This document shows positions 9,965 to 58,197 of a stretch of 64,000 bases of DNA, piece by piece. Numbering within the stretch: the first letter of the stretch is position 1; each line of letters begins with the position of its first letter. The notes below the pieces were generated by a model. That model was not told the origin of the DNA. It made no database searches and saw only the letters and a list, made by a program, of their open reading frames with translations. This stretch comes from an uncultured Erythrobacter sp. (GTDB lineage Bacteria > Pseudomonadota > Alphaproteobacteria > Sphingomonadales > Sphingomonadaceae), in NCBI GenBank assembly GCA_947499095.1, contig CANMMR010000006.1:186664-250663 (forward strand), given 5' to 3'. A program made the position numbers and the translations under genes.

Positions 9965-11308
9965 TTAGCTTGCGCGGACCTCGGCAGTGAAGGCCTGCAT
10001 CTTCGCACGCAGAGCTTCGGCCTGTAGTTCGAGTTCTTCCGCCGATGTCAGCACCTGGCTGGCCGCGGCGCCTGCCGACAACGACGTCTCGCGGACCTGC
10101 GAAATGCTGCCCGAGACCTCTTCGGTCGAGCGGGCGGCAAGGTCGATGCTGCGGGCGAGGTCCTGACCGGCAACCGACTGCTGGTCGACCGCGCTGGCGA
10201 TGGACACGGCAGTCGTTTCGAGTTCGCGGATCTGGTCGACGATCGAACGCAGCGCGCCGACGCTGGCACCGGTCGAATTCTGCATGTCACGGATCTGATC
10301 GGCGATCTCTTCCGTCGCACGACTGGTCTGCGAGGCGAGTTCCTTCACTTCGCTGGCGACGACTGCGAAACCGCGCCCGGCTTCGCCCCCGCGCGCCGCT
10401 TCGATCGACGCGTTGAGCGCGAGCAGGTTCGTGCGTTTGGCGATCGACTGGATCAGTTCAACGATTGCGCCGACCTGATCGGCCGAACTGGCAAGGGCAG
10501 AAATCGTATCGTCCGCGCCGGTTGCGGTCTCGGTCGCCTTGCGCGCCAGATCGGCCGAATGCGCCGCTTGTCGGCTGATCTCGCCGATCGACATGGCAAA
10601 TTCGTCGGAGGCCGCCGCGGCCGCGGTCGCGCCGCTGGATGCCTGCTCCATCGAATAAATGACCTGTTCGGCCTGGCCGGTCGCCTGGTTGGCGGTAGAT
10701 GCCATGCCTTGCGCCGTCGTCTTGAGCTGGCTCGATGCCGCTGCGACACCACCGGCGATCTCGCCGACGCTGGAGTCGAGGTTGGCAGCCAGCTGGAGCA
10801 ATTCTGCCTTGCGGGCCTTCTCCGAGTTATGCTTCTTTGCGAAGAGCTCGTCGAGCTTGTGGCCGGACTTGGTGAAAACGTGCAGTGCGCGCGCGAGGTC
10901 TCCAATTTCATCGACCCGATCGGTACCGATCAGCTCGATGTCGCGGGCACCCGCTGCGAGGCGAGTCATTTCCCGGCTGATGTGCGAATAGGGCGCAATT
11001 ACCCGTTTTCGCATGAATTGCAGGGCGATCAGGCTGACAGGGACGCTGAAACCGACAATACCGAGTATCGCGATCAGGGCCAGTCGGCTGCTCGCGGGTG
11101 AAATAAGCCCCCAGGCGGCCAGGGTTCCGATGACCGCAAGGCCGCCGACGGACATGAGGGAGGCCAGCACCGCCTTGTCGTCGAGCGACTTGCCCATGAA
11201 CCACGCGCCGACGCCGGTGACTTCATCATCCCGCACGCCGGCACCTACTTCAACGTCGGCGATCTCGCGGATGAGATCGTGTTCCAGGAAATTCGTCGGC
11301 GCGTTCAT
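9965..11308 (-). CDS. mcp: Methyl-accepting chemotaxis protein (2 TM, minimal periplasmic loop, HAMP)
   Basis: [37 protein letters not shown] hairpin tip; [16 protein letters not shown]. Confidence 0.95.
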
Positions 11309-11321
11309 GCGTCACTCCCCA

Positions 11322-11336
11322 TTAAGCTGTTGCTAA
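11322..11336. promoter_or_regulatory. Putative CtrA box upstream of mcp
   Basis: TTAA-GCTGTTG-CTAAC (one mismatch); a TTAACCAT half-site also lies on the minus strand near 11362. Confidence 0.55.
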
Positions 11337-11495
11337 CTGTAAGACGGGAGCGCTTGCGAAATGGTTAAGCGGTGAGAATTCGGTCTCGATCGCGTGACGA
11401 CGAAATTAAGGCAATCGGTACGGAGCCCCGGCGATTTATTGCCAGAGGATGCGACGGTCGCGCTGGCTGCAACGCAGATCGGAGGCTCTTCCCGG

Positions 11496-17283: not shown

Positions 17284-17718
17284 TTAAGCCGCCTCTTCCA
17301 TCGGGCCGGCGATGAGCGAGGACGTGTCGATCAGCAGGGTGGGGCCGCTCTCGGTCTCGACCATGCCGCGGGCGGCGCGTTGCCATCCCGCGCCGAAGCC
17401 ACCGGGCACGGCGACAGGCTGGCTGAGCGCTTCGCCGACATCATAGGCGGCATCGACGAGCAGCGCGTAGAGATGCCCTTCGACTTCGACCACCGCCGCG
17501 CGCTGGTCGTCTTCCGCAACCGACTTTTCGAGGCCCAAGGCCAGCGAGCAGTCGATCACCGTCAACGCCTGACTACGCAGGGCCGTGAGGCCGAGAATGA
17601 AGTCCGGCGTTCCCGGGATCGGCGTGATCTCCTCGATCTCGATCACGGACTGGACATCGCTCGCCGGGATGGCCGCGTGGCGGTCGGCGACGAGGCACTG
17701 GAGCAGCAAATCGGTCAT
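17284..17718 (-). CDS. cheW: Chemotaxis coupling protein CheW
   Basis: ITPIPGTPDFILGLTALRSQALTVID; position in the operon. Confidence 0.88.
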   Translation of the reverse strand: MTDLLLQCLVADRHAAIPASDVQSVIEIEEITPIPGTPDFILGLTALRSQALTVIDCSLALGLEKSVAEDDQRAAVVEVEGHLYALLVDAAYDVGEALSQPVAVPGGFGAGWQRAARGMVETESGPTLLIDTSSLIAGPMEEAA

Positions 17719-20132
17719 GCGGTCCTCCCGAGGCGGGCCTGTTTGAGCGCGGCCAGCAGGCCGTCGCGGTCGTAGCGGTAGATGGTATCGCCATCGGCTC
17801 CGGCAGTGTGCGGATCCTGGGTCAGGCGGATGACGCTGCGGGCGCTGGCGGATCGTTCGGGCCGGACGGTTTCGGCCAGCTGGATCTCGACATCGGCATC
17901 TTCGCCGTCATCGGCTGCGATACGGTATCCGGCTGCCTCGACCAGCGGCTCCAGGATCGTACGCGCCCAGTCGCTATCGTCCGGAATCCGGCAAGACAGT
18001 ACCTCCTGAGTGCGGCGCTGGACGCGCTGGCGCGCAAACAGCGCGTGCCCGTCGAGCACCGGCACGAGCGAGTCGCCGATGAGGGTCACGCCCTCGATCA
18101 GGGGATCGTCCTGCGAGGGAATGATCTCGCCATCCATATCGGCGGCGTCGAGCACTTCGTTGACCGCATAAACGACCTCGCTCTCGCCATCGGTCAGGCG
18201 CAGCAGGCGGCAGCGATTTTCCGGCAGCTCGCCGAATTCGAGGCCGAGGAGCGTGAATACCGATCCGTCGATGACGGCCTGCGCTCGCTGGCCCTCGATA
18301 TCGATCGCCTCGCGCGACACGGTGTCGATCCGGCGAACCATGTCGAGCCGCACGGCGCGCTTGCGATCGTCGAGCCCGGCGAAGAGCATGATCGGCACGG
18401 CCTTGCGGCCCGTTTCGATGACCTCTTCTTCTACAACCTCGGTCGTGCGGCCCTCGCCCATGTGCAGGCGGTTGGTCGCGATGCTCGGCAAATCGAGCAA
18501 CATCATCGGGCGGCCATCGTCGAGCAGGGTGGTCCCCGCATAGAGGCGGGTTTCCATCACTGCCGGGGCGATCGGTTTGACCACTACGTCCTCGTGATCG
18601 AACACACGGTCGACGGCGAGGGCAAAAACATCGTCGCTGGCGAGACGGATGAGGACCAGCGTCTTGCTGTCCCATTCCGCATCGTCGATCTCGTCGATAC
18701 CGAGAATGTCGCCCAGCGCGAGGCACGGGACGCGCTTGTCGCGGAAGGTCACGAGGCGGCGGTCGCCGGCAGTGGCGAATTCGACGTTGCTGCTGCTGCT
18801 GAAGACGATCTCTTCGACATAGCTGCGCGGGATTGCATACCGCTGCCCGCCGGCGCCGACGGTAAGAGCGGCGATGATGCTGAGCGTGAGCGGCAGCTTG
18901 AGATGGAAGCTGGCGCCTTCACCCGGCTTGCTGACGACATCGATCGAGCCACCGACGCGTTCGATATTGGCACGCACCACATCCATGCCGACACCGCGGC
19001 CGGAAACCGAGCTGACTTCATTGGCAGTCGACAGGCCCGGCTCGAAAATGAGCAGGTGCTTGCGCCGGTCGGACATGCGATCGACTTCGCTCTGCGAATA
19101 GAGCCCGGCGGCGACGGCCTTGTCTGCGAGACGGCCGGTGTCGATCCCCCGGCCGTCATCGGAGACGACCAAGCTGATCTGGTTGCCAGCCTGGCGCGCT
19201 GCGAAGCGGAGCAGGCCGATCTCGCGCTTGCCGTTCTTCAGTCGCTCGCCGGGTCCTTCGATGCCGTGATCGATGGCGTTGCGAATGATGTGGGTCAGCG
19301 GATCGCGGACCATCTCGATCATCTCGCGATCGAGTTCGACCTCTCCGCCCTCGAAATCGACCATGACCTGCTTGCCGAGTTCGTTCGACAGATCGCGGAC
19401 GAGGCGGGGAAGCGAGCTGAAAAGATGCTCGAGCCGCTGCATCCGCATGCGGGTAATGGCGGCGCGAACGTCGGCCAAGATTGTCGATAGACGGTCGAAG
19501 GGCCCGTCGATGGTCGGCTGCTCCCCGGCTTCGCGCAAGCGGCGCGACAGGTCGTTGCGGGCCAGCACCATGTCGGAAACGCCCTTCATCACCTCGTCGA
19601 GCAGGTCGACCGGCAGGCGGATGGAGCGCTGTACGGCCTGAGCGCGGGCGGGTTTCGGTGCGGAGCTCTCGCTGTCGGAATCGTCGCCGCGATCCGCGTC
19701 GGCATCGCTTTGGTCGTTCGCAGGCTGGGCTTCCGGCATCACGGCGCTGGCAACCACGATGTCGTCACTGCCCTGGAGCGCTGCAATCAGTTCATCGTCG
19801 CCGCCCTCGGGAAATTCCTCACCCGCTTCGATCGCGTCGGTCATCTCGCTGATCCGGTCGATGATGGCGAGGACGGCGGATACGAGCGCGCTGTCGGCCT
19901 CGCGGCGTCCGGCGCGGCACTCGGACAGGGCATCTTCGGCTGCGTGACTTAGCTTCTCGAGCCGCGGAAAATCGAAGAAACCGCAATTGCCCTTTACGGT
20001 ATGGACGAAGCGGAAAATCGTATCGAGCCGCGCGCGGTCGGACGGGTCCGCTTCCCAGGCGACGATCTCCCCGCCGCTGGCTTCCAGCATTTCTCGTGTT
20101 TCGGCGACGAAATCCGCCAGAAGATCATCCAT
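17715..20132 (-). CDS. cheA: Chemotaxis histidine kinase CheA
   Basis: P1 FRFVHTVKG, HIIRNAIDHG, DDGRG, GRGVGMDVV, CheW-like P5. Confidence 0.96.
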   Translation of the reverse strand: MDDLLADFVAETREMLEASGGEIVAWEADPSDRARLDTIFRFVHTVKGNCGFFDFPRLEKLSHAAEDALSECRAGRREADSALVSAVLAIIDRISEMTDAIEAGEEFPEGGDDELIAALQGSDDIVVASAVMPEAQPANDQSDADADRGDDSDSESSAPKPARAQAVQRSIRLPVDLLDEVMKGVSDMVLARNDLSRRLREAGEQPTIDGPFDRLSTILADVRAAITRMRMQRLEHLFSSLPRLVRDLSNELGKQVMVDFEGGEVELDREMIEMVRDPLTHIIRNAIDHGIEGPGERLKNGKREIGLLRFAARQAGNQISLVVSDDGRGIDTGRLADKAVAAGLYSQSEVDRMSDRRKHLLIFEPGLSTANEVSSVSGRGVGMDVVRANIERVGGSIDVVSKPGEGASFHLKLPLTLSIIAALTVGAGGQRYAIPRSYVEEIVFSSSSNVEFATAGDRRLVTFRDKRVPCLALGDILGIDEIDDAEWDSKTLVLIRLASDDVFALAVDRVFDHEDVVVKPIAPAVMETRLYAGTTLLDDGRPMMLLDLPSIATNRLHMGEGRTTEVVEEEVIETGRKAVPIMLFAGLDDRKRAVRLDMVRRIDTVSREAIDIEGQRAQAVIDGSVFTLLGLEFGELPENRCRLLRLTDGESEVVYAVNEVLDAADMDGEIIPSQDDPLIEGVTLIGDSLVPVLDGHALFARQRVQRRTQEVLSCRIPDDSDWARTILEPLVEAAGYRIAADDGEDADVEIQLAETVRPERSASARSVIRLTQDPHTAGADGDTIYRYDRDGLLAALKQARLGRTA

Positions 20133-20173
20133 ATAACTGCCCCTGATCCGATCGGGCCCAGCTATGCAGCAAG

Positions 20174-20181
20174 ATGGTTAA
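20174..20181 (-). promoter_or_regulatory. CtrA-type TTAACCAT half-site upstream of the cheA operon
   Basis: Minus strand reads CAAA-N7-TTAACCAT about 40 nt upstream of the cheA ATG; overlaps the MATE stop codon. Confidence 0.45.
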
Positions 20182-54565: not shown

Positions 54566-55363
54566 TTAATCTTCGCGAACATCCACGCTGCTGGATTTGA
54601 AGTCGCTGGCCCCGAAGGTGGTCATGAAGCTGACGTCAGCCGCATCCCGACCGACGCCGATTTTAACGGTCTCGGCCGGATCGGCCATGCCGGTCGCATC
54701 GACGATCTGCCATGTGCCGCCACCTTCGATTTCCGGGTCGGCGAGGAAAACCTCTGCGACAGCGTGAAAATCGGGGGGCGTGACGCCCGGCGCGTAACAT
54801 GACACGTAACGCGCTGGGATGGCGCAGGCGCGAGCCATGGTGACGAGCACATGCGCATAATCACGGCACACACCTTGGCGCGAAACGAATGTCTCGACCG
54901 CGCCGGTGTCCGGACCGGATGCTCCGGGCGTGTAGCTGAAATTCTCGTGTATCCAGTCCCGCATCGCCGCGATCTGCGCGCCGCCCTGCAAATGCCCGAA
55001 TTCCGATTGCGAGAAGGGCTGGAACCGATCCGCCGGGCAATAGCGGCTGTCCAGCAAGTAGTGGATCGCCTCTCCAGGCAACTGATGCGGGGGAAGCGCC
55101 TGCAAGCTCGCGAGGTCGGCAAGCTGTCGCTTGATCTCGATTCTGGCCCGATACTCGACGTCGCAATGTCCGTCCGCGCTCAACCAGATGCGCTCACCGA
55201 TATCGTCATCTGCGGGAACGCGAGTGAAGTCCTGCCCCGGCGGCAGATGTGTCTCGCATGAGAGGATGGTCTGCTCGGGCAGGGCGGCGGCTTCGAATTG
55301 CAGCAGGACATCGGTCGGACCGTCGACGCTGAAGGCGAAGCGCGTATGGATGGATATGGGCAT
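54566..55363 (-). CDS. Transglutaminase-like domain protein
   Basis: YLLDSRYC, GVCRDYAH (Cys), DFHAVAE (His), VDAT (Asp). Confidence 0.88.
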   Translation of the reverse strand: MPISIHTRFAFSVDGPTDVLLQFEAAALPEQTILSCETHLPPGQDFTRVPADDDIGERIWLSADGHCDVEYRARIEIKRQLADLASLQALPPHQLPGEAIHYLLDSRYCPADRFQPFSQSEFGHLQGGAQIAAMRDWIHENFSYTPGASGPDTGAVETFVSRQGVCRDYAHVLVTMARACAIPARYVSCYAPGVTPPDFHAVAEVFLADPEIEGGGTWQIVDATGMADPAETVKIGVGRDAADVSFMTTFGASDFKSSSVDVRED

Positions 55364-55436
55364 ATGACGGGACAACGCCGTCGGCCCTCGATCGTTTCGG
55401 CAATCGGAACCATTTCCAGAAAACCATGCGCCCATG

Positions 55437-55462
55437 AAAAAAGGGCCCCGTTAGGGACCCTT
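55437..55462 (-). terminator. Rho-independent terminator after the micro-ORF
   Basis: Minus strand AAGGGTCCC-TAAC-GGGGCCCTT followed by a U-run. Confidence 0.8.
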
Positions 55463-55487
55463 AATTCGTTTGGTTTCGCCACGGCGA

Positions 55488-55523
55488 TCAGCCGGTGAAG
55501 AACCATTTCCAAATATTCCACAT
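55488..55523 (-). CDS. Putative 11-aa Trp/Phe-rich peptide MWNIWKWFFTG
   Basis: AGGAGG 7 nt upstream of ATG 55523 (second in-frame ATG at 55529), TGA at 55488, terminator about 25 nt downstream. Confidence 0.6.
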   Translation of the reverse strand: MWNIWKWFFTG

Positions 55524-55582
55524 GGCCATACCTCCTGTTGGTAGAGGTATTACCTGCCATTAACCATAGATGTTTGTAAAGT

Positions 55583-57946
55583 CTAAACCATGTTTGCGGT
55601 GCGGCCTTCCACGTGTTTTGCGTGGTATTCCAATAACTTGGCCAAAGAAATCGGCCTGCTGAAAACGAAGCCCTGAAGCTCGTCGCAGCCCATTTCGTTA
55701 AGAATCTCGGCTTCTTTCATCGTCTCCACGCCCTCGGCGACGACCGTGATTCGCGCCTGATGGCCCATCTCGACGATGCTGGACACGATTGCGCGCGCCT
55801 TGGGGTTTTCGACGATCTTCGATACGAATAACCGGTCGATCTTCAATTCGTTGAACGGCAGTCCGAAAAAGGTTTCGAAATTAGCCGCACCGACCCCGAA
55901 ATCGTCGATCGAAAGACCAACGCCCAACTTGACCAATTCCTCCAGGATCGTCGCCGCCGCTTCCATATCTGCGATCCGCGCCGTCTCGGTAATCTCGAGT
56001 GTCAGATAGCCCGGGTCGAAACGGGTCGCCTGCAGCGCGTTGCGGACGAGGCCGACGATGCGCATGTCCCTGAGCAGGGTCGCAGATATATTGACGGAGA
56101 CCTTGAGCGGGGAATTGCGGAAATGCAGCAACTGCCCGGCGGAACACGCGCTTTGCAGGACATATCGCGTGAGGTGCTCCATGCGACCTGCCTTCTCGCA
56201 TTGCGCGACGAAATGCGTCGGTTCGATGAAGCCCTTGGCCGGGTCGTGCCAGCGTATCAGGGCTTCTACCCCGACGATGGCGCCGGATCCGCTGTCTATC
56301 TTGGGCTGATAGACGCAGTAAATCTCCCCTGCATCCATTGCTTCGTCGATCCGAGCACGGAGTGAAATGTCCCACAACAGGTCGGCATTCTCGCCGCTTT
56401 CCGCCAACTTGATGGGATCATGGGCTTCCGTGGTGTCCTCCGCAGCTGCAATGGCTGCCGGGACGCGGCCCACGGGCTCGTTGTCGATCGCGGCAACGCC
56501 GAAGGTAATGCCAACGTCGATCGATACCTCGCCGACATGAACCGGTGCCGCGAAAATTGCGCGCAAGCCAGCAAGGTGCTCCGTCTGAGCGGAGCTATCT
56601 TCGATCGGTGAGTGCCACGCGACGTAGTGGCCTTCGGTAAAGACGGCCAGATCGGGATCGGCCGCGCGCAAACGGTCGATTAGCTTCAAGAGGTAGGTAG
56701 TGCGATCTTCCGAGGCGAGGCTTTTGAGAATCCGCTCGTAATTGTGCACTTTGGCAACCACCACGTGCCCGGTTGTCACTTTGTCACGGATGAGGCGGCT
56801 GTCGAGTGCCTTCAGCGTGGGCAGCCCGGTTTCCTGATTGGTCAGGGCGAGGCGACGTTTGAGGCGCGTTCGGGACCGGAATACCGCGTAGACGGCGAAA
56901 AGTGCTAAAACGTAAGATACCTCGAGGCGTACTCCGACCCGGGCGGATGCTATCAGCATGGCGGGCACGAGCAGTACAAGTGCAGCATAGCCGAGCCAGC
57001 GGGCTTTACGCCGGAATCCGAGCATGATCATCGCTGCCAGCAAAGCGGCAAAGATTGCTAGAGTGGCAATCGCACCCAGATGACCAAGCCGCCCGCTTTT
57101 GAGCGTTTCACCACCATAGATAGAAATATAGCTCGGAGGCGCGTTCGTACTGTTCGGCACGATGAGGTTGGAGCCAGAGCTATTCCTGTCGTGTCCGATG
57201 ACGACGGTGTTGCCAGCGAAATCGATGCTGGACGGTTCATCGGAATCGTCAAGAAGCTCGGCAAGCGACGTTGTTGCTATCTGCTGGCCTGAGAAGCCGT
57301 AGTCAATTTGGAACTTCCCTTGCGTCGCCCCGCTGGTTTCTCCGCCCAACGATGCGGCGAGCGAAGGGACACGTCGACCGTCGACGATAAATCCGTATTG
57401 TGCGGTCCATGCGATGCCGAGGTAATTCGTGTCCCGCCGATCGGCGACTACGCGGGATGACGTCGGCCCGAGACCGGAGAAGCTTCGACGCAACTGCTGG
57501 CTGCCGTCCATATCCCCGACGAGCTGATCGACCAATGCAATGCGCGGCCCCAGAGCGTTTATTGCTTCGCGTAACGAGGCGTCATGCGGCGCGGCTGAAG
57601 GCTTGTCGAACACAACATCGAGATAGACTTTGCCGACACCGCGGCGGTCCAATTCCTCCAAGGCCTTGGCAAGCTGAAGGCGCCGATGACCCGAGTCCGG
57701 ATCATCGAGAATTTGGTCGCTCCCGACAAAGACGATGTCGCCGGAGGCCTTGTGACCCGCAATCTTGGATTGGAACAGCCACAGGAACTGATCGATGGGT
57801 TCGAAAAGGAAAACGGCGAACAGAGGGATTACGAGAAGAACCGAAAAAACCAGGTGCCGCAAGCGTTCGCCCACGCGCCGGGCGCCCCTTGGCCGCAATC
57901 GCGCCGGGAGAAGCCGTTTTCCTGGAAAGGCGCTTTCGGTACCCAT
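55583..57946 (-). CDS. CHASE2 + degenerate GGDEF + EAL c-di-GMP phosphodiesterase
   Basis: CHASE2-like DIVFVG..D..L / GVGKVYLDVVFD, 3-4 TMs, TGLPTL with no GGDEF motif, intact EALIRW, SVN, EITE, DDFG, KIDRLF, AEGVE, QGF. Confidence 0.85.
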   Translation of the reverse strand: MGTESAFPGKRLLPARLRPRGARRVGERLRHLVFSVLLVIPLFAVFLFEPIDQFLWLFQSKIAGHKASGDIVFVGSDQILDDPDSGHRRLQLAKALEELDRRGVGKVYLDVVFDKPSAAPHDASLREAINALGPRIALVDQLVGDMDGSQQLRRSFSGLGPTSSRVVADRRDTNYLGIAWTAQYGFIVDGRRVPSLAASLGGETSGATQGKFQIDYGFSGQQIATTSLAELLDDSDEPSSIDFAGNTVVIGHDRNSSGSNLIVPNSTNAPPSYISIYGGETLKSGRLGHLGAIATLAIFAALLAAMIMLGFRRKARWLGYAALVLLVPAMLIASARVGVRLEVSYVLALFAVYAVFRSRTRLKRRLALTNQETGLPTLKALDSRLIRDKVTTGHVVVAKVHNYERILKSLASEDRTTYLLKLIDRLRAADPDLAVFTEGHYVAWHSPIEDSSAQTEHLAGLRAIFAAPVHVGEVSIDVGITFGVAAIDNEPVGRVPAAIAAAEDTTEAHDPIKLAESGENADLLWDISLRARIDEAMDAGEIYCVYQPKIDSGSGAIVGVEALIRWHDPAKGFIEPTHFVAQCEKAGRMEHLTRYVLQSACSAGQLLHFRNSPLKVSVNISATLLRDMRIVGLVRNALQATRFDPGYLTLEITETARIADMEAAATILEELVKLGVGLSIDDFGVGAANFETFFGLPFNELKIDRLFVSKIVENPKARAIVSSIVEMGHQARITVVAEGVETMKEAEILNEMGCDELQGFVFSRPISLAKLLEYHAKHVEGRTANMV

Positions 57947-57972
57947 CGAATGCGCTTATGGGCGTCTTAAGT

Positions 57973-57987
57973 TTAAGAAACCTTTGA
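57973..57987. promoter_or_regulatory. Putative CtrA box upstream of the CHASE2-EAL gene
   Basis: TTAA-GAAACCT-TTGA (one mismatch). Confidence 0.5.
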
Positions 57988-58197
57988 CGCGAGCCGCGGG
58001 TTTTCGCGTTCGGCGCGGAATCGTGCGGCACTGGGTGGTTAAGGCGCGCTTAGGATTTGTGTTGGCCGATCAGCTGCAAAACCGGCGGAGGGATCGTTCG
58101 GGTCGGAAAAAAGCTTATGATTTTTGAAGGTTGCAGGCTGCGGGCGTAGCCTACCTGATTTAGTAAATTGCCACTTTCGGTCGGTCTCCACGAAATT

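What the first reader, a model, noticed from the sequence alone, without database searches (positions are those of the whole stretch)
55437..57987. Unannotated Trp-rich micro-peptide gene (MWNIWKWFFTG) paired with a CHASE2-EAL phosphodiesterase
Seen: 60 nt after the CHASE2-EAL stop there is a perfect AGGAGG, an ATG 7 nt later, 11 codons (3 Trp, 2 Phe, 1 Lys), a TGA and a strong intrinsic terminator. A TTAACCAT CtrA-type half-site (55560-55567) lies just upstream, and the EAL gene has its own CtrA-like box. The EAL gene looks by eye less GC-biased than the flanking core genes. Established: CHASE2 is an extracytoplasmic sensor whose ligands are largely unknown, and very short ORFs are missed by annotators. 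Inference: a cognate sensor/peptide cassette. The hydrophobic-cationic peptide could be a signal sensed by CHASE2 or a membrane regulator of the PDE, making this a peptide-controlled c-di-GMP switch.
Basis: partly seen in the sequence, partly recalled or inferred. Interest (0 to 1): 0.8.

Follow-up and report, generated by a model that had tools for sequence, protein, structure and literature searches.

The report
Conserved Trp-rich micro-gene behind c-di-GMP phosphodiesterase
Right after a membrane-bound c-di-GMP-degrading enzyme gene lies a real, unannotated 11-codon gene for a tryptophan-rich peptide; the pair, with its own conserved control sequences and RNA hairpins, recurs in about a quarter of the genera of the sphingomonad family, so the peptide very probably works with the enzyme, but how is still unknown.

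Summary
On the minus strand the CHASE2/degenerate-GGDEF/EAL phosphodiesterase gene (57946-55583) is followed by AGGAGG (55536-55531), ATG (55523), MWNIWKWFFTG, TGA (55490-55488) and an intrinsic terminator (55462-55437).

It is not a chance ORF. A covariance model found the module in 48 of 301 genomes (27 of 112 genera) of the family and nowhere in 400 other alphaproteobacterial genomes. It is essentially single-copy. In all 47 loci inspected it sits directly 3' of a full-length homologue of this phosphodiesterase (30-90% identity).

All 47 ORFs start with ATG, have an SD 5-9 nt upstream and run 10-17 codons. They share the core [I/F]-W-x-W-[L/I/F]-[F/L], with coding-type substitutions.

Also conserved are two CATGGTTAA boxes (TTAACCAT, the CtrA half-site) flanking CTTTACAAAC, a hairpin that buries the SD, a second hairpin over the ORF's 3' half and stop codon, and the terminator.

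It is not a leader or attenuator: downstream genes differ and are often convergent, and no antiterminator exists. Nothing supports export to CHASE2.

Best reading: a translationally masked, separately controlled micro-protein that acts on or with the phosphodiesterase. The mechanism is inferred, not shown.

The parts
55583..57946 (-). Gene for a 787-aa membrane c-di-GMP phosphodiesterase: TM1, periplasmic CHASE2, three TMs, degenerate GGDEF-like domain, EAL domain
   Evidence: Pfam finds EAL and CHASE2. Residues about 357-520 align with the GGDEF part of DosP, HmsP and GepA. The EAL motifs (EAL, N, E-x-x-E, DDFG, K, EGVE, QG) align with the solved MucR phosphodiesterase. There are four hydrophobic segments at 33-51, 293-311, 321-339 and 337-355.
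55584..55591 (-). Box 1: ATGGTTTA on the gene strand (TAAACCAT on +), overlapping the EAL stop codon; ATGGTTAA or ATAGTTAA in relatives
   Evidence: It is conserved in different reading frames relative to the stop codon (ATG GTT TAG, GCA TAG TTA AC, GGT TAA), so it is a nucleic-acid element rather than a protein constraint.
55572..55580 (-). TTTACAAAC element (CTTTACAAAC with the preceding C); -35-like TTTACA, TTGACA in two relatives
   Evidence: T18, T19, A21, C22 and A24 are invariant in the 19-sequence alignment. The consensus CTTTACaAAc holds across 47 loci.
55560..55567 (-). Box 2: ATGGTTAA on the gene strand (TTAACCAT on +), a CtrA-type half-site
   Evidence: TGGTTAA is invariant in the alignment and near-invariant in 47 loci. 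It is oriented opposite to the micro-ORF. Most other TTAACCAT sites of this genome point towards the gene they precede.
55524..55554 (-). Hairpin H1: an anti-SD (ACCTCT) pairs with the SD (AGGAGGT) and buries it
   Evidence: Its energy here is -14.4 kcal/mol. The SD is paired in 42 of 47 modules, with mean z -2.85 against shuffles, and the stems show compensatory changes.
55531..55536 (-). Shine-Dalgarno AGGAGG, 7 nt before the ATG
   Evidence: Read. An SD lies 5-9 nt upstream of the ATG in all 47 modules.
55488..55523 (-). Micro-ORF: ATG, 11 codons (MWNIWKWFFTG), TGA
   Evidence: It is conserved as M-x(0-4)-[IF]-W-x-W-[LIF]-[FL]-[GSP] in 47 loci. The two core Trp are kept in 44 and 45 of 46. 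Pairwise codon differences by position are 2193/629/2556.
55464..55514 (-). Hairpin H2: the 3' half of the ORF and its stop codon pair with the sequence just downstream
   Evidence: The minimum-energy fold is shown. A local fold around the stop codon is more stable than shuffles across the 47 modules (mean z -1.47), and a hairpin spanning the stop codon is built from different sequences in different lineages.
55437..55462 (-). Intrinsic terminator (9-bp stem, loop TAAC, T run)
   Evidence: Found by the terminator scan. It is conserved, and 4 of 8 consensus pairs show both-sided changes. It remains the minimum-energy fold when the ORF is masked.
58035..58042 (-). TTAACCAC, 96 nt upstream of the EAL start and co-directional with the gene (CtrA-type half-site)
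   Evidence: In the 16 genus orthologues inspected, TTAACC stands at exactly -96 in 9, TTTACC stands there in 2 more, and TTAACC lies at -77 or -107 in 2.
57965..57980 (-). Conserved TTTCTTAAACTTAAGA (inverted repeat TCTTAA-AC-TTAAGA), 20-35 nt before the EAL start
   Evidence: It is nearly identical in 12 or more genus orthologues. Its function is unknown.

Best explanation
What the comparisons show: this is a genuine, translated micro-gene of 10-17 codons with core Phi-W-x-W-Phi-Phi. It forms a fixed two-gene cassette with a CHASE2/degenerate-GGDEF/EAL c-di-GMP phosphodiesterase in part of the Sphingomonadaceae (GTDB sense; here a Qipengyuania-like genome). It ends the transcription unit at an intrinsic terminator. 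Its RNA is tightly structured: one hairpin buries the SD (and often the AUG), and a second covers the ORF's 3' half and stop codon. It is preceded by a conserved non-coding element: two CATGGTTAA boxes (TTAACCAT, the CtrA half-site) around CTTTACAAAC. What I infer: the small aromatic peptide stays in the cytoplasm or at the inner face of the membrane and binds the neighbouring phosphodiesterase, or its immediate signalling partner, to change its activity or stability. Peptide synthesis is kept off on the phosphodiesterase read-through transcript by the anti-SD hairpin. It is switched on separately, either from a promoter or operator formed by the conserved boxes (probably read by CtrA) or by RNA processing or unfolding. 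Enzyme and modulator would then be made under different conditions.
For: 1. Conservation and linkage. The model R1 finds the module in 48 of 301 family genomes and 27 of 112 genera, and in none of 400 other alphaproteobacterial genomes. The phosphodiesterase likewise has no homologue at E<=1e-60 outside the family (only two candidates scored per genome). Every locus inspected lies directly 3' of a collinear full-length homologue at 30-90% identity. The own genome holds a single copy, and the core motif occurs in no real gene elsewhere in it.

2. Coding signature. In 47 of 47 loci the ORF starts with ATG, has an SD 5-9 nt upstream and is closed after 10-17 codons. The two core Trp are kept in 44/46 and 45/46. 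Flanking positions stay hydrophobic (I/F, L/I/F, F/L) while codons vary synonymously (ATT/ATC, TTT/TTC, CTG/CTC/CTT, GAT/GAC). The second codon position is the most conserved: 629 pairwise differences against 2193 and 2556.

3. RNA structure. The SD hairpin occurs in 42 of 47 modules with mean z -2.85 and compensatory stems. The local fold around the stop codon has mean z -1.47. The terminator shows covariation.

4. Not a leader for the next gene. Downstream genes differ (transglutaminase-like, G6PD, acyl-CoA thioesterase, EngB-type GTPase, flavin reductase, CDP-alcohol transferase) and are convergent in many genomes. No antiterminator forms.

5. The boxes. They are invariant or nearly so, and box 1 is kept in different frames across the stop codon. 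The genome has a CtrA orthologue. Of the 32 TTAACCAT sites, 24 lie outside my coding calls, and 15 sit within 83 nt upstream of a co-directional gene, including a DUF1153/SciP-family gene, an MCP, a CheA and a REC-Hpt gene. The phosphodiesterase gene has its own conserved site at -96.

6. The enzyme looks catalytically competent.

7. Functional proteins of this size are known: the 15-aa SpfP (PMC8916003) and the 14-aa Trp-rich peTrpL (PMC7298713).
Against: There is no direct evidence of translation: no Ribo-seq or proteomics data were available. There is no evidence of any physical contact with the phosphodiesterase. The tools offer no complex prediction, and no peptide-enzyme fusion exists among 113 homologues. 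The transcription start is unknown. The only RNA data are metatranscriptome contigs that join the enzyme's 3' end to the SD hairpin, which fits co-transcription but says nothing about a separate promoter. The boxes point away from the micro-ORF, unlike most TTAACCAT sites in this genome. A -10 placed 17-18 nt after TTTACA would overlap the 5' arm of the conserved hairpin. The promoter reading is therefore uncertain. Ten to seventeen residues cannot span a membrane. In one genome (G016) the enzyme gene is a pseudogene while the module is intact; the ORF is too small a target for this to be decisive. Genetic linkage alone does not prove functional interaction.
Confidence: 0.5

Rival explanations
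1. The functional product is mainly the RNA. A roughly 110-nt structured small RNA is either cut from the 3' end of the phosphodiesterase mRNA (for example by RNase E in the conserved single-stranded CUUUACAAAC) or transcribed on its own. It acts by base pairing, and the peptide is secondary (a dual-function RNA) or dispensable.
For: The architecture is three hairpins ending in a Rho-independent terminator. The SD and often the AUG are buried. A conserved AU-rich stretch lies just upstream. Metatranscriptome contigs run from the enzyme gene into the module. Dual-function RNAs with very small ORFs are known (PMC8916003, PMC12612679).
Against: Conservation follows the reading frame. ATG and a well-spaced SD are present in 47 of 47 loci. 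Hydrophobic residue classes are kept through codon changes and the second codon position is the most conserved. The single-stranded parts outside the ORF are not conserved. No Rfam family matches. No target complementarity was sought or found.
Confidence: 0.15
2. The ORF acts in cis. Translation of it, or ribosome arrest on the Trp-rich nascent peptide (sensing Trp-tRNA or a small molecule), opens the hairpins and sets the stability or 3'-end formation of the phosphodiesterase mRNA. The released peptide would have no role of its own.
For: The ORF holds two or three Trp codons in 10-17 codons. A conserved hairpin encloses the 3' half of the ORF and the stop codon, so a ribosome must melt it. 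Short arrest and leader peptides are well known (own knowledge: TnaC, Erm leaders; trpL in 10.1101/606483).
Against: No antiterminator alternative exists; the terminator stays the best fold with the ORF masked. Nothing regulated lies downstream, and the neighbours are often convergent. The distance from the W-x-W core to the stop codon varies from 3 to 11 codons and the N-terminal length from 1 to 5 residues, which is unlike arrest peptides. The hydrophobic flanks are conserved as well, not only the Trp codons.
Confidence: 0.1
3. One reading: the peptide is exported and is the ligand of the periplasmic CHASE2 domain, forming an autocrine peptide signal.
For: The only support is the strict pairing with a CHASE2 receptor whose ligand is unknown.
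Against: There is no signal sequence and no room for one. No exporter, protease or modification gene is linked, and the neighbours vary. Charge and C-terminal tail are variable. A buried SD and a cell-cycle-type operator fit an intracellular regulator better than a secreted cue.
Confidence: 0.05
4. The conserved boxes are not a promoter for the micro-ORF. They would be a CtrA-dependent antisense promoter or a protein roadblock at the 3' end of the phosphodiesterase gene, and the micro-ORF would simply be co-transcribed with the enzyme. This rival concerns the boxes only and is compatible with a functional peptide.
For: Both boxes read TTAACCAT or TAAACCAT on the strand opposite to the genes. 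In this genome 15 of the 24 non-coding TTAACCAT sites point towards the gene they precede. The conserved hairpin needs RNA that starts at or before the end of box 2. Contigs join the enzyme gene to the hairpin.
Against: No conserved -10 exists in the antisense direction, because that region is the variable C-terminal coding tail. On the sense strand TTTACA or TTGACA is a good -35 and is nearly invariant.
Confidence: 0.15

Closest known systems
Small-protein regulators encoded beside or in the operon of the membrane protein they control (MgtR in mgtCBR, MgrB and SafA acting on PhoQ, KdpF, CydX; own knowledge)
   Same: It is a tiny unannotated ORF genetically tied to a membrane signalling or transport protein, with the expected action being direct binding that changes activity or stability.
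   Different: Those proteins are 26-50 residues with a full transmembrane helix. This peptide has 10-17 residues, cannot span a membrane, has its own conserved upstream element and a masked SD, and no binding has been shown.
SpfP, the 15-aa protein encoded in Spot 42 RNA (PMC8916003), and other dual-function RNAs (PMC12612679)
   Same: It is of similar size, lies in a short structured terminator-ended RNA, and sits in a second-messenger pathway (cAMP-CRP there, c-di-GMP here).
   Different: There is no sequence relation. Spot 42 is a free-standing gene with known base-pairing targets. Here the module is fixed to the 3' end of one enzyme gene, and no RNA targets are known.
trpL attenuator with rnTrpL and peTrpL of Sinorhizobium meliloti (PMC7298713, 10.1101/606483)
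   Same: It is alphaproteobacterial, of about 110 nt, carries a Trp-rich ORF of about 14 codons, and ends in a terminator. The trpL leader peptide has a function in trans.
   Different: trpL is defined by consecutive UGG codons, a position upstream of trpE and an antiterminator. Here the Trp codons are separated (W-x-W), the hydrophobic flanks are conserved, no trp gene follows and no antiterminator exists.
CtrA-controlled promoters of Alphaproteobacteria (TTAA-N7-TTAAC and the half-site TTAACCAT; own knowledge)
   Same: The half-site occurs twice in the module and once upstream of the enzyme gene. In this genome the same 8-mer precedes a SciP-family gene, an MCP gene and a CheA gene.
   Different: There is no full TTAA-N7-TTAA site. 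The two boxes are 24 bp apart and point away from the micro-ORF. Binding was not tested.
Type I toxin mRNAs (own knowledge)
   Same: It is a very small hydrophobic ORF whose SD is locked in a hairpin.
   Different: The peptide is too short for a membrane helix. The module is single-copy, vertically inherited and always beside the same gene, and no antisense RNA gene is evident.

Membership tests
CHASE2-containing EAL c-di-GMP phosphodiesterase (the partner gene) | CHASE2 domain above the Pfam threshold, flanked by transmembrane segments | tested here: met
   PF05226 scores 33.7 bits against a cut-off of 26.3, over residues 51-275. Hydrophobic segments lie at 33-51, 293-311, 321-339 and 337-355.
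CHASE2-containing EAL c-di-GMP phosphodiesterase (the partner gene) | EAL domain with the catalytic motifs | tested here: met
   PF00563 gives 6.6e-65. The alignment to the solved MucR phosphodiesterase keeps EAL, N (VNIS), E-x-x-E (EITE), DDFG, K (KID), EGVE and QG. Enzyme activity itself was not tested.
trp-type ribosome-mediated attenuator (trpL) | Two or more consecutive Trp codons in the leader ORF | tested here: not met
   The Trp codons are separated (W-x-W) in 46 of 47 ORFs; only MFNIWDWWFGRGGRDSK has two adjacent. The definition is taken from 10.1101/606483.
trp-type ribosome-mediated attenuator (trpL) | Lies upstream of, and controls, a tryptophan biosynthesis gene | tested here: not met
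   The downstream genes are unrelated to Trp, differ between genera and are often convergent.
trp-type ribosome-mediated attenuator (trpL) | An antiterminator structure that competes with the terminator | tested here: not met
   With the ORF masked, the terminator stays unchanged in 35 of 47 folds. In the other 12 the change is a shifted stem end or a terminator that my T-run search cut short, not a competing structure.
Transmembrane small-protein regulators (MgrB, MgtR, KdpF type) | A hydrophobic helix long enough to span the membrane (about 20 residues) | tested here: not met
   The peptides are 10-17 residues with a hydrophobic core of about 6.
Transmembrane small-protein regulators (MgrB, MgtR, KdpF type) | Physical binding to the partner protein | not testable with these tools
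   No complex prediction or experiment was available. No natural fusion was found among 113 homologues.
Dual-function small RNA | A discrete short transcript with its own 5' end and a terminator | tested here: inconclusive
   The terminator is present and conserved. The 5' end is unknown, and the metatranscriptome contigs are not informative on it.
Dual-function small RNA | Base-pairing targets | not tested
   No target search was made.
CtrA binding site | Sequence TTAACCAT (half-site) or TTAA-N7-TTAAC (full site) | tested here: met
   The half-site is present at 55560-55567 and conserved. There is no full site. The genome has a CtrA orthologue, and the 8-mer is concentrated upstream of genes, including genes typical of the CtrA regulon.
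CtrA binding site | Binding by CtrA~P and CtrA-dependent expression | not testable with these tools
   This needs EMSA, ChIP-seq or a ctrA mutant.
Type I toxin-antitoxin | A membrane-active toxin of about 19 or more residues with a cis or trans antisense RNA, often multi-copy | tested here: not met
   The peptide has 10-17 residues and is single-copy per genome. It is always beside the same chromosomal gene.
Tiny RiPP or microcin C-type precursor | Adjacent modification and export genes | tested here: not met
   The neighbours are housekeeping genes and vary. The radical-SAM gene upstream is MiaB/RimO-like (UPF0004, Radical_SAM, TRAM).

The most novel reading that the evidence does not exclude
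A peptide-gated c-di-GMP switch. CtrA, or whichever factor reads the CATGGTTAA boxes, times the synthesis of a 10-17-residue Phi-W-x-W-Phi-Phi peptide. The peptide's mRNA is translationally silent on the enzyme's own transcript. The peptide binds the CHASE2/GGDEF*/EAL phosphodiesterase directly, for example by adding a W-W-F aromatic strand or an interfacial helix to its juxtamembrane or degenerate-GGDEF region. This turns the enzyme on or off or marks it for degradation. It would be the smallest known dedicated protein regulator of a c-di-GMP enzyme.
Probability: 0.3. Interest if true: 0.8.

Novelty: new variant of a known kind. Interest (0 to 1): 0.66.

Why it matters
Genes of about 11 codons are invisible to annotation, and very few have a known function. 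This one has unusually strong comparative support: 49 distinct peptide sequences share one core, and all sit beside the same enzyme. It also has a defined partner in a major signalling pathway, c-di-GMP, which controls attachment against dispersal. That makes its function directly testable with a start-codon mutant, a synthetic peptide and a c-di-GMP reporter. CHASE2 receptors have almost no known inputs or regulators, so a dedicated micro-protein partner would be a first handle on them. The layered control (conserved operator boxes, anti-SD hairpin, hairpin over the stop codon) is also a compact model for how cells keep a co-transcribed micro-ORF silent until needed.

Tried and rejected
1. 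Chance ORF: rejected by conservation in 47 of 47 loci.

2. Leader or attenuator for the downstream transglutaminase-like gene: rejected. The downstream genes vary and are often convergent, and no antiterminator forms.

3. Known RNA family: Rfam gave only Atu_C8 at E=0.95, far below its threshold.

4. A regulon sharing the composite motif in the own genome: only this one copy exists.

5. A link to flagellar motility: FliP is absent from this genome and from G227, yet both carry the module, and the module occurs in genomes with and without FliP.

6. A Rosetta-stone fusion of peptide and enzyme: none among 113 homologues. The two long outliers are an over-extended N-terminus and a CHASE2 duplication.

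7. The peptide motif inside larger proteins of the genome: none in a real gene.

8. Transcript boundaries. Runs holding the own sequence are metagenomes or metatranscriptome contigs without usable ends. Raw RNA-seq reads listed for a relative's species label did not map at all. Contigs on another relative only show continuity from the enzyme gene to the hairpin.

9. A scan of genome contigs for the box pattern returned three unrelated chance hits and nothing from the family. The relatives seem to be withheld there, so organism names came from protein hits instead.

10. Co-variation of the peptide's central residue (K/R against D/E) with residues of the enzyme: not pursued, because at most three independent switches exist. 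An orthologue-against-paralogue comparison gave 45 orthologue-specific residues but no clear patch.

11. The MAFFT/RNAalifold consensus missed the SD hairpin because the 5' arms were misaligned. Per-sequence folds were used instead.


Full report
**What is there**

On the minus strand of the window, a 787-codon ORF (57946-55583) encodes a membrane protein with a CHASE2 domain and an EAL domain.

- It has four hydrophobic segments, at 33-51, 293-311, 321-339 and 337-355.
- These place CHASE2 in the periplasm and the C-terminal half in the cytoplasm.
- Residues about 357-520 align with the GGDEF part of DosP, HmsP and GepA, but the GGDEF motif is degenerate (EGHYVAW).
- The EAL motifs align with the solved MucR phosphodiesterase, so the protein is probably an active c-di-GMP phosphodiesterase.

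After its TAG stop come, in order:

| Feature (minus strand) | Window coordinates |
|---|---|
| Box ATGGTTTA, overlapping the stop codon | 55591-55584 |
| TTTACAAAC (CTTTACAAAC with the preceding C) | 55580-55572 |
| Hairpin pairing ACCTCT with the SD | 55554-55524 |
| AGGAGG | 55536-55531 |
| ATG | 55523 |
| Eleven codons MWNIWKWFFTG, then TGA | stop at 55490-55488 |
| Second hairpin over the ORF's 3' half and stop codon | 55514-55464 |
| Intrinsic terminator | 55462-55437 |

**Is it more than chance?**

Yes. I searched 40 relatives with the phosphodiesterase protein and read the DNA after each orthologue's stop codon.

- Every orthologue with sequence available carries a short ORF of the same kind. 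This holds down to 31% protein identity.
- Examples are MWSIWRWFFTG, MWNIWEWLLGKG, MFNIWEWLMGK, MWSFWDWLLGGK and MWDIWEWLFPRRR.

A covariance model built from 19 of these gave the wider picture.

- It found the module in 48 of 301 genomes of the family, in 27 of 112 genera. It is essentially single-copy; the two genomes with two hits are one split locus and one contig-edge fragment.
- It found only weak matches to the model's terminator part (and two short marginal ones) in 400 other alphaproteobacterial genomes.
- The phosphodiesterase itself has no homologue at E<=1e-60 outside the family, though only two candidates per genome were scored.
- In all 47 loci I could inspect, the module lies directly 3' of an EAL gene.
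- For 20 family-level loci I fetched the whole gene. Each is a collinear full-length homologue at 30-42% identity.
- Paralogous CHASE2-EAL genes at 28-30% identity lack the module.
- The own genome has a single copy, and the core motif occurs in no real gene elsewhere in it.
- Protein hits name the genus as Qipengyuania, with Erythrobacter and Porphyrobacter relatives. All are annotated only as 'EAL domain-containing protein'.

**Is it coding?**

- All 47 ORFs begin with ATG, have an SD 5-9 nt upstream, and close after 10-17 codons.
- Aligned on the core, the pattern is x-[I/F]-W-[D/E/K/R/N]-W-[L/I/F]-[F/L]-[G/S/P].
- The two core Trp are kept in 44/46 and 45/46.
- The flanking positions stay hydrophobic while their codons change (ATT/ATC, TTT/TTC, CTG/CTC/CTT/TTG), and the polar positions vary freely.
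- Pairwise codon differences by position are 2193/629/2556, with the second position most conserved. This is the signature of selection on an amino-acid sequence, not on an RNA motif.
- Fifty genomes give 49 distinct peptides with 2-3 Trp, one third aromatic residues, and net charge from -2 to +2.
- No direct evidence of translation was obtainable.

**RNA structure**

- The SD is paired in the minimum-energy fold of 42 of 47 5' regions. The mean z is -2.85 against shuffles.
- The stems differ between lineages but stay complementary: CCTCCTG/CAGGAGG, CCTTTGTG/CACGAAGG, CTTCTG/CAGAAG and GTCTCC/GGAGAC.
- In many sequences the AUG is also paired.
- The local fold around the stop codon is more stable than shuffles (mean z -1.47). 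In many modules a hairpin encloses the stop codon.
- These stems are again built from unrelated sequences, such as GGGC/GCCC, CGAC/GTCG, GAAC/GTTC and GGATCT/AGATCC.
- The terminator is conserved with compensatory changes.
- When the ORF is masked, as by a stalled ribosome, the terminator is unchanged in 35 of 47 folds. The other 12 differ only by a shifted stem end or a terminator cut short by my own T-run search. There is no antiterminator.

**Context**

The gene after the terminator differs between genomes:

- transglutaminase-like, in this genome
- G6PD
- acyl-CoA thioesterase II
- EngB-type GTPase
- flavin reductase
- CDP-alcohol phosphatidyltransferase
- a cadherin-like protein

In many genomes this gene is convergent. 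The micro-ORF therefore ends a transcription unit and cannot be a leader for a downstream gene. The trp-attenuator idea fails on each defining feature: consecutive Trp codons, a trp gene downstream, and an antiterminator (the definition is from 10.1101/606483).

**The conserved non-coding element**

- The consensus over the family is aaCAtgGTTaA-nn-CTTTACaAAc-a-nnn-atGGTTAA-ng.
- Box 1 is kept although it overlaps the stop codon in three different frames. It is therefore a DNA- or RNA-level signal, and it explains the odd conserved '...ANMV*' tail of the enzyme.
- On the other strand both boxes read TTAACCAT or TAAACCAT, the CtrA half-site (own knowledge).

Evidence that TTAACCAT is a working CtrA-type site in this genome:

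- The genome has a clear CtrA orthologue. It is 77% identical to my recalled Caulobacter sequence, against 35% or less for paralogues.
- Of the 32 TTAACCAT copies, 24 lie outside my crude coding calls. Several AT-rich control 8-mers are also concentrated in non-coding DNA, but TTAACCAT is the most numerous.
- Fifteen sit within 83 nt upstream of a co-directional gene.
- These genes include a DUF1153 gene (the SciP family, own knowledge), an MCP, a CheA and a REC-Hpt gene.
- The phosphodiesterase gene has its own co-directional site 96 nt before its ATG. In the 16 genus orthologues inspected, TTAACC stands at exactly that distance in 9, TTTACC stands there in 2 more, and TTAACC lies at -77 or -107 in 2.
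- That gene also has a strongly conserved TTTCTTAAACTTAAGA just before the start.

CtrA control of the cassette is therefore plausible. What the downstream boxes do is open:

- TTTACA (TTGACA in two relatives) is a good -35.
- However, a -10 placed 17-18 nt after it would overlap the 5' arm of the conserved hairpin.
- The boxes also point away from the micro-ORF.
- One reading is that a short transcript from this promoter lacks the anti-SD arm and is translatable, while the read-through transcript is silent.
- Another is that there is no sense promoter, and the boxes are an operator, a roadblock or an antisense promoter.

The only RNA evidence is metatranscriptome contigs that run from the enzyme's 3' end into the hairpin. 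Raw RNA-seq reads listed for a relative's species label did not map.

**How it most likely works**

Shown by the comparisons:

- a conserved, frame-constrained micro-gene
- strict linkage to one phosphodiesterase family
- masked translation signals
- a terminal position in the transcription unit
- a conserved upstream element with CtrA-type half-sites

Inferred:

- The peptide is made in the cytoplasm under separate control and acts on the neighbouring phosphodiesterase or its pathway.
- The alternating W-x-W-x-F pattern would give one aromatic face in an extended strand, or an interfacial amphipathic segment. This suits docking onto a protein surface or the membrane interface rather than spanning the bilayer.
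- I give about 0.8 that it is translated and functional as a peptide, and about 0.5 to the explanation as a whole, including that its target is the phosphodiesterase system.

Rivals are a mainly RNA-level function, a cis-acting translation device, an exported CHASE2 ligand (little support), and a different role for the boxes.

**Comparison with what is known**

The closest in logic are small proteins encoded with their membrane partner (MgtR, MgrB, KdpF). This peptide lacks the transmembrane helix that defines them. The closest in size and RNA context are SpfP in Spot 42 (PMC8916003) and peTrpL/rnTrpL (PMC7298713), but it is not a member of either. Searches of the paper library found nothing on a micro-ORF beside CHASE2-EAL genes. 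My family-wide survey agrees with it. It adds the hairpins, the boxes, the exclusion of attenuation and the family limits.

**Verdict**

The finding is real and new to the literature as far as I could search. It is a new family of micro-protein genes with a defined partner. The mechanism is unproven.

Noticed in passing
L023, L024, L025, L029, L030, L031 (C-terminal ends of paralogous CHASE2-EAL genes): The paralogues that lack the micro-ORF all end in ...AA (LRDAA, SRKAA, LSRAA, ALAA, LDEAA; MAS in one). This resembles the C-terminal Ala-Ala degrons of ClpXP substrates such as CtrA. The micro-ORF-linked orthologues never end this way.
   Followed up: no
window 57965-57980 (- strand): TTTCTTAAACTTAAGA is an inverted repeat (TCTTAA-AC-TTAAGA) lying 20-35 nt before the phosphodiesterase start. 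It is almost identical across the genus. It is probably an operator or a 5'-UTR element, and its function is unknown.
   Followed up: partly
window 9965-11368 and 17715-20181 (- strand): An MCP gene and a CheA gene each have a co-directional TTAACCAT just upstream. Yet the genome has no FliP. This looks like a chemotaxis-like pathway without a flagellum, probably under CtrA.
   Followed up: partly
genome contig C1:423709-424099: A DUF1153 (SciP-family) gene has TTAACCAT 83 nt upstream. The CtrA orthologue lies at C1:565533-566225.
   Followed up: partly
window 55500-55511 and about 55405-55416 (- strand): The 12-mer TGGAAATGGTTC inside the micro-ORF recurs exactly after the terminator, in the 5' region of the transglutaminase-like ORF. 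The closest relative (L003) has four differences in the second copy, so the repeat is specific to this genome. It may be chance or a small conversion event.
   Followed up: partly
L019 (G016:C2:317978-322429): In this same-genus genome the phosphodiesterase gene is a pseudogene with at least 7 in-frame stops. The boxes, hairpin, micro-ORF (MWSIWNWLMS) and terminator are nonetheless intact.
   Followed up: partly
window 55361-55435 (- strand): The listed start of the transglutaminase-like ORF (ATG 55435) lies inside the terminator's T-run region. An in-frame ATG at 55363 is the more likely start.
   Followed up: no
L022 and L059: A divergent peptide type (MWEYFRTLFGAR, MWDYLFPPRRAG) stands in the same position, with the same kind of boxes, SD and terminator, behind distant CHASE2-EAL homologues.
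   Followed up: no
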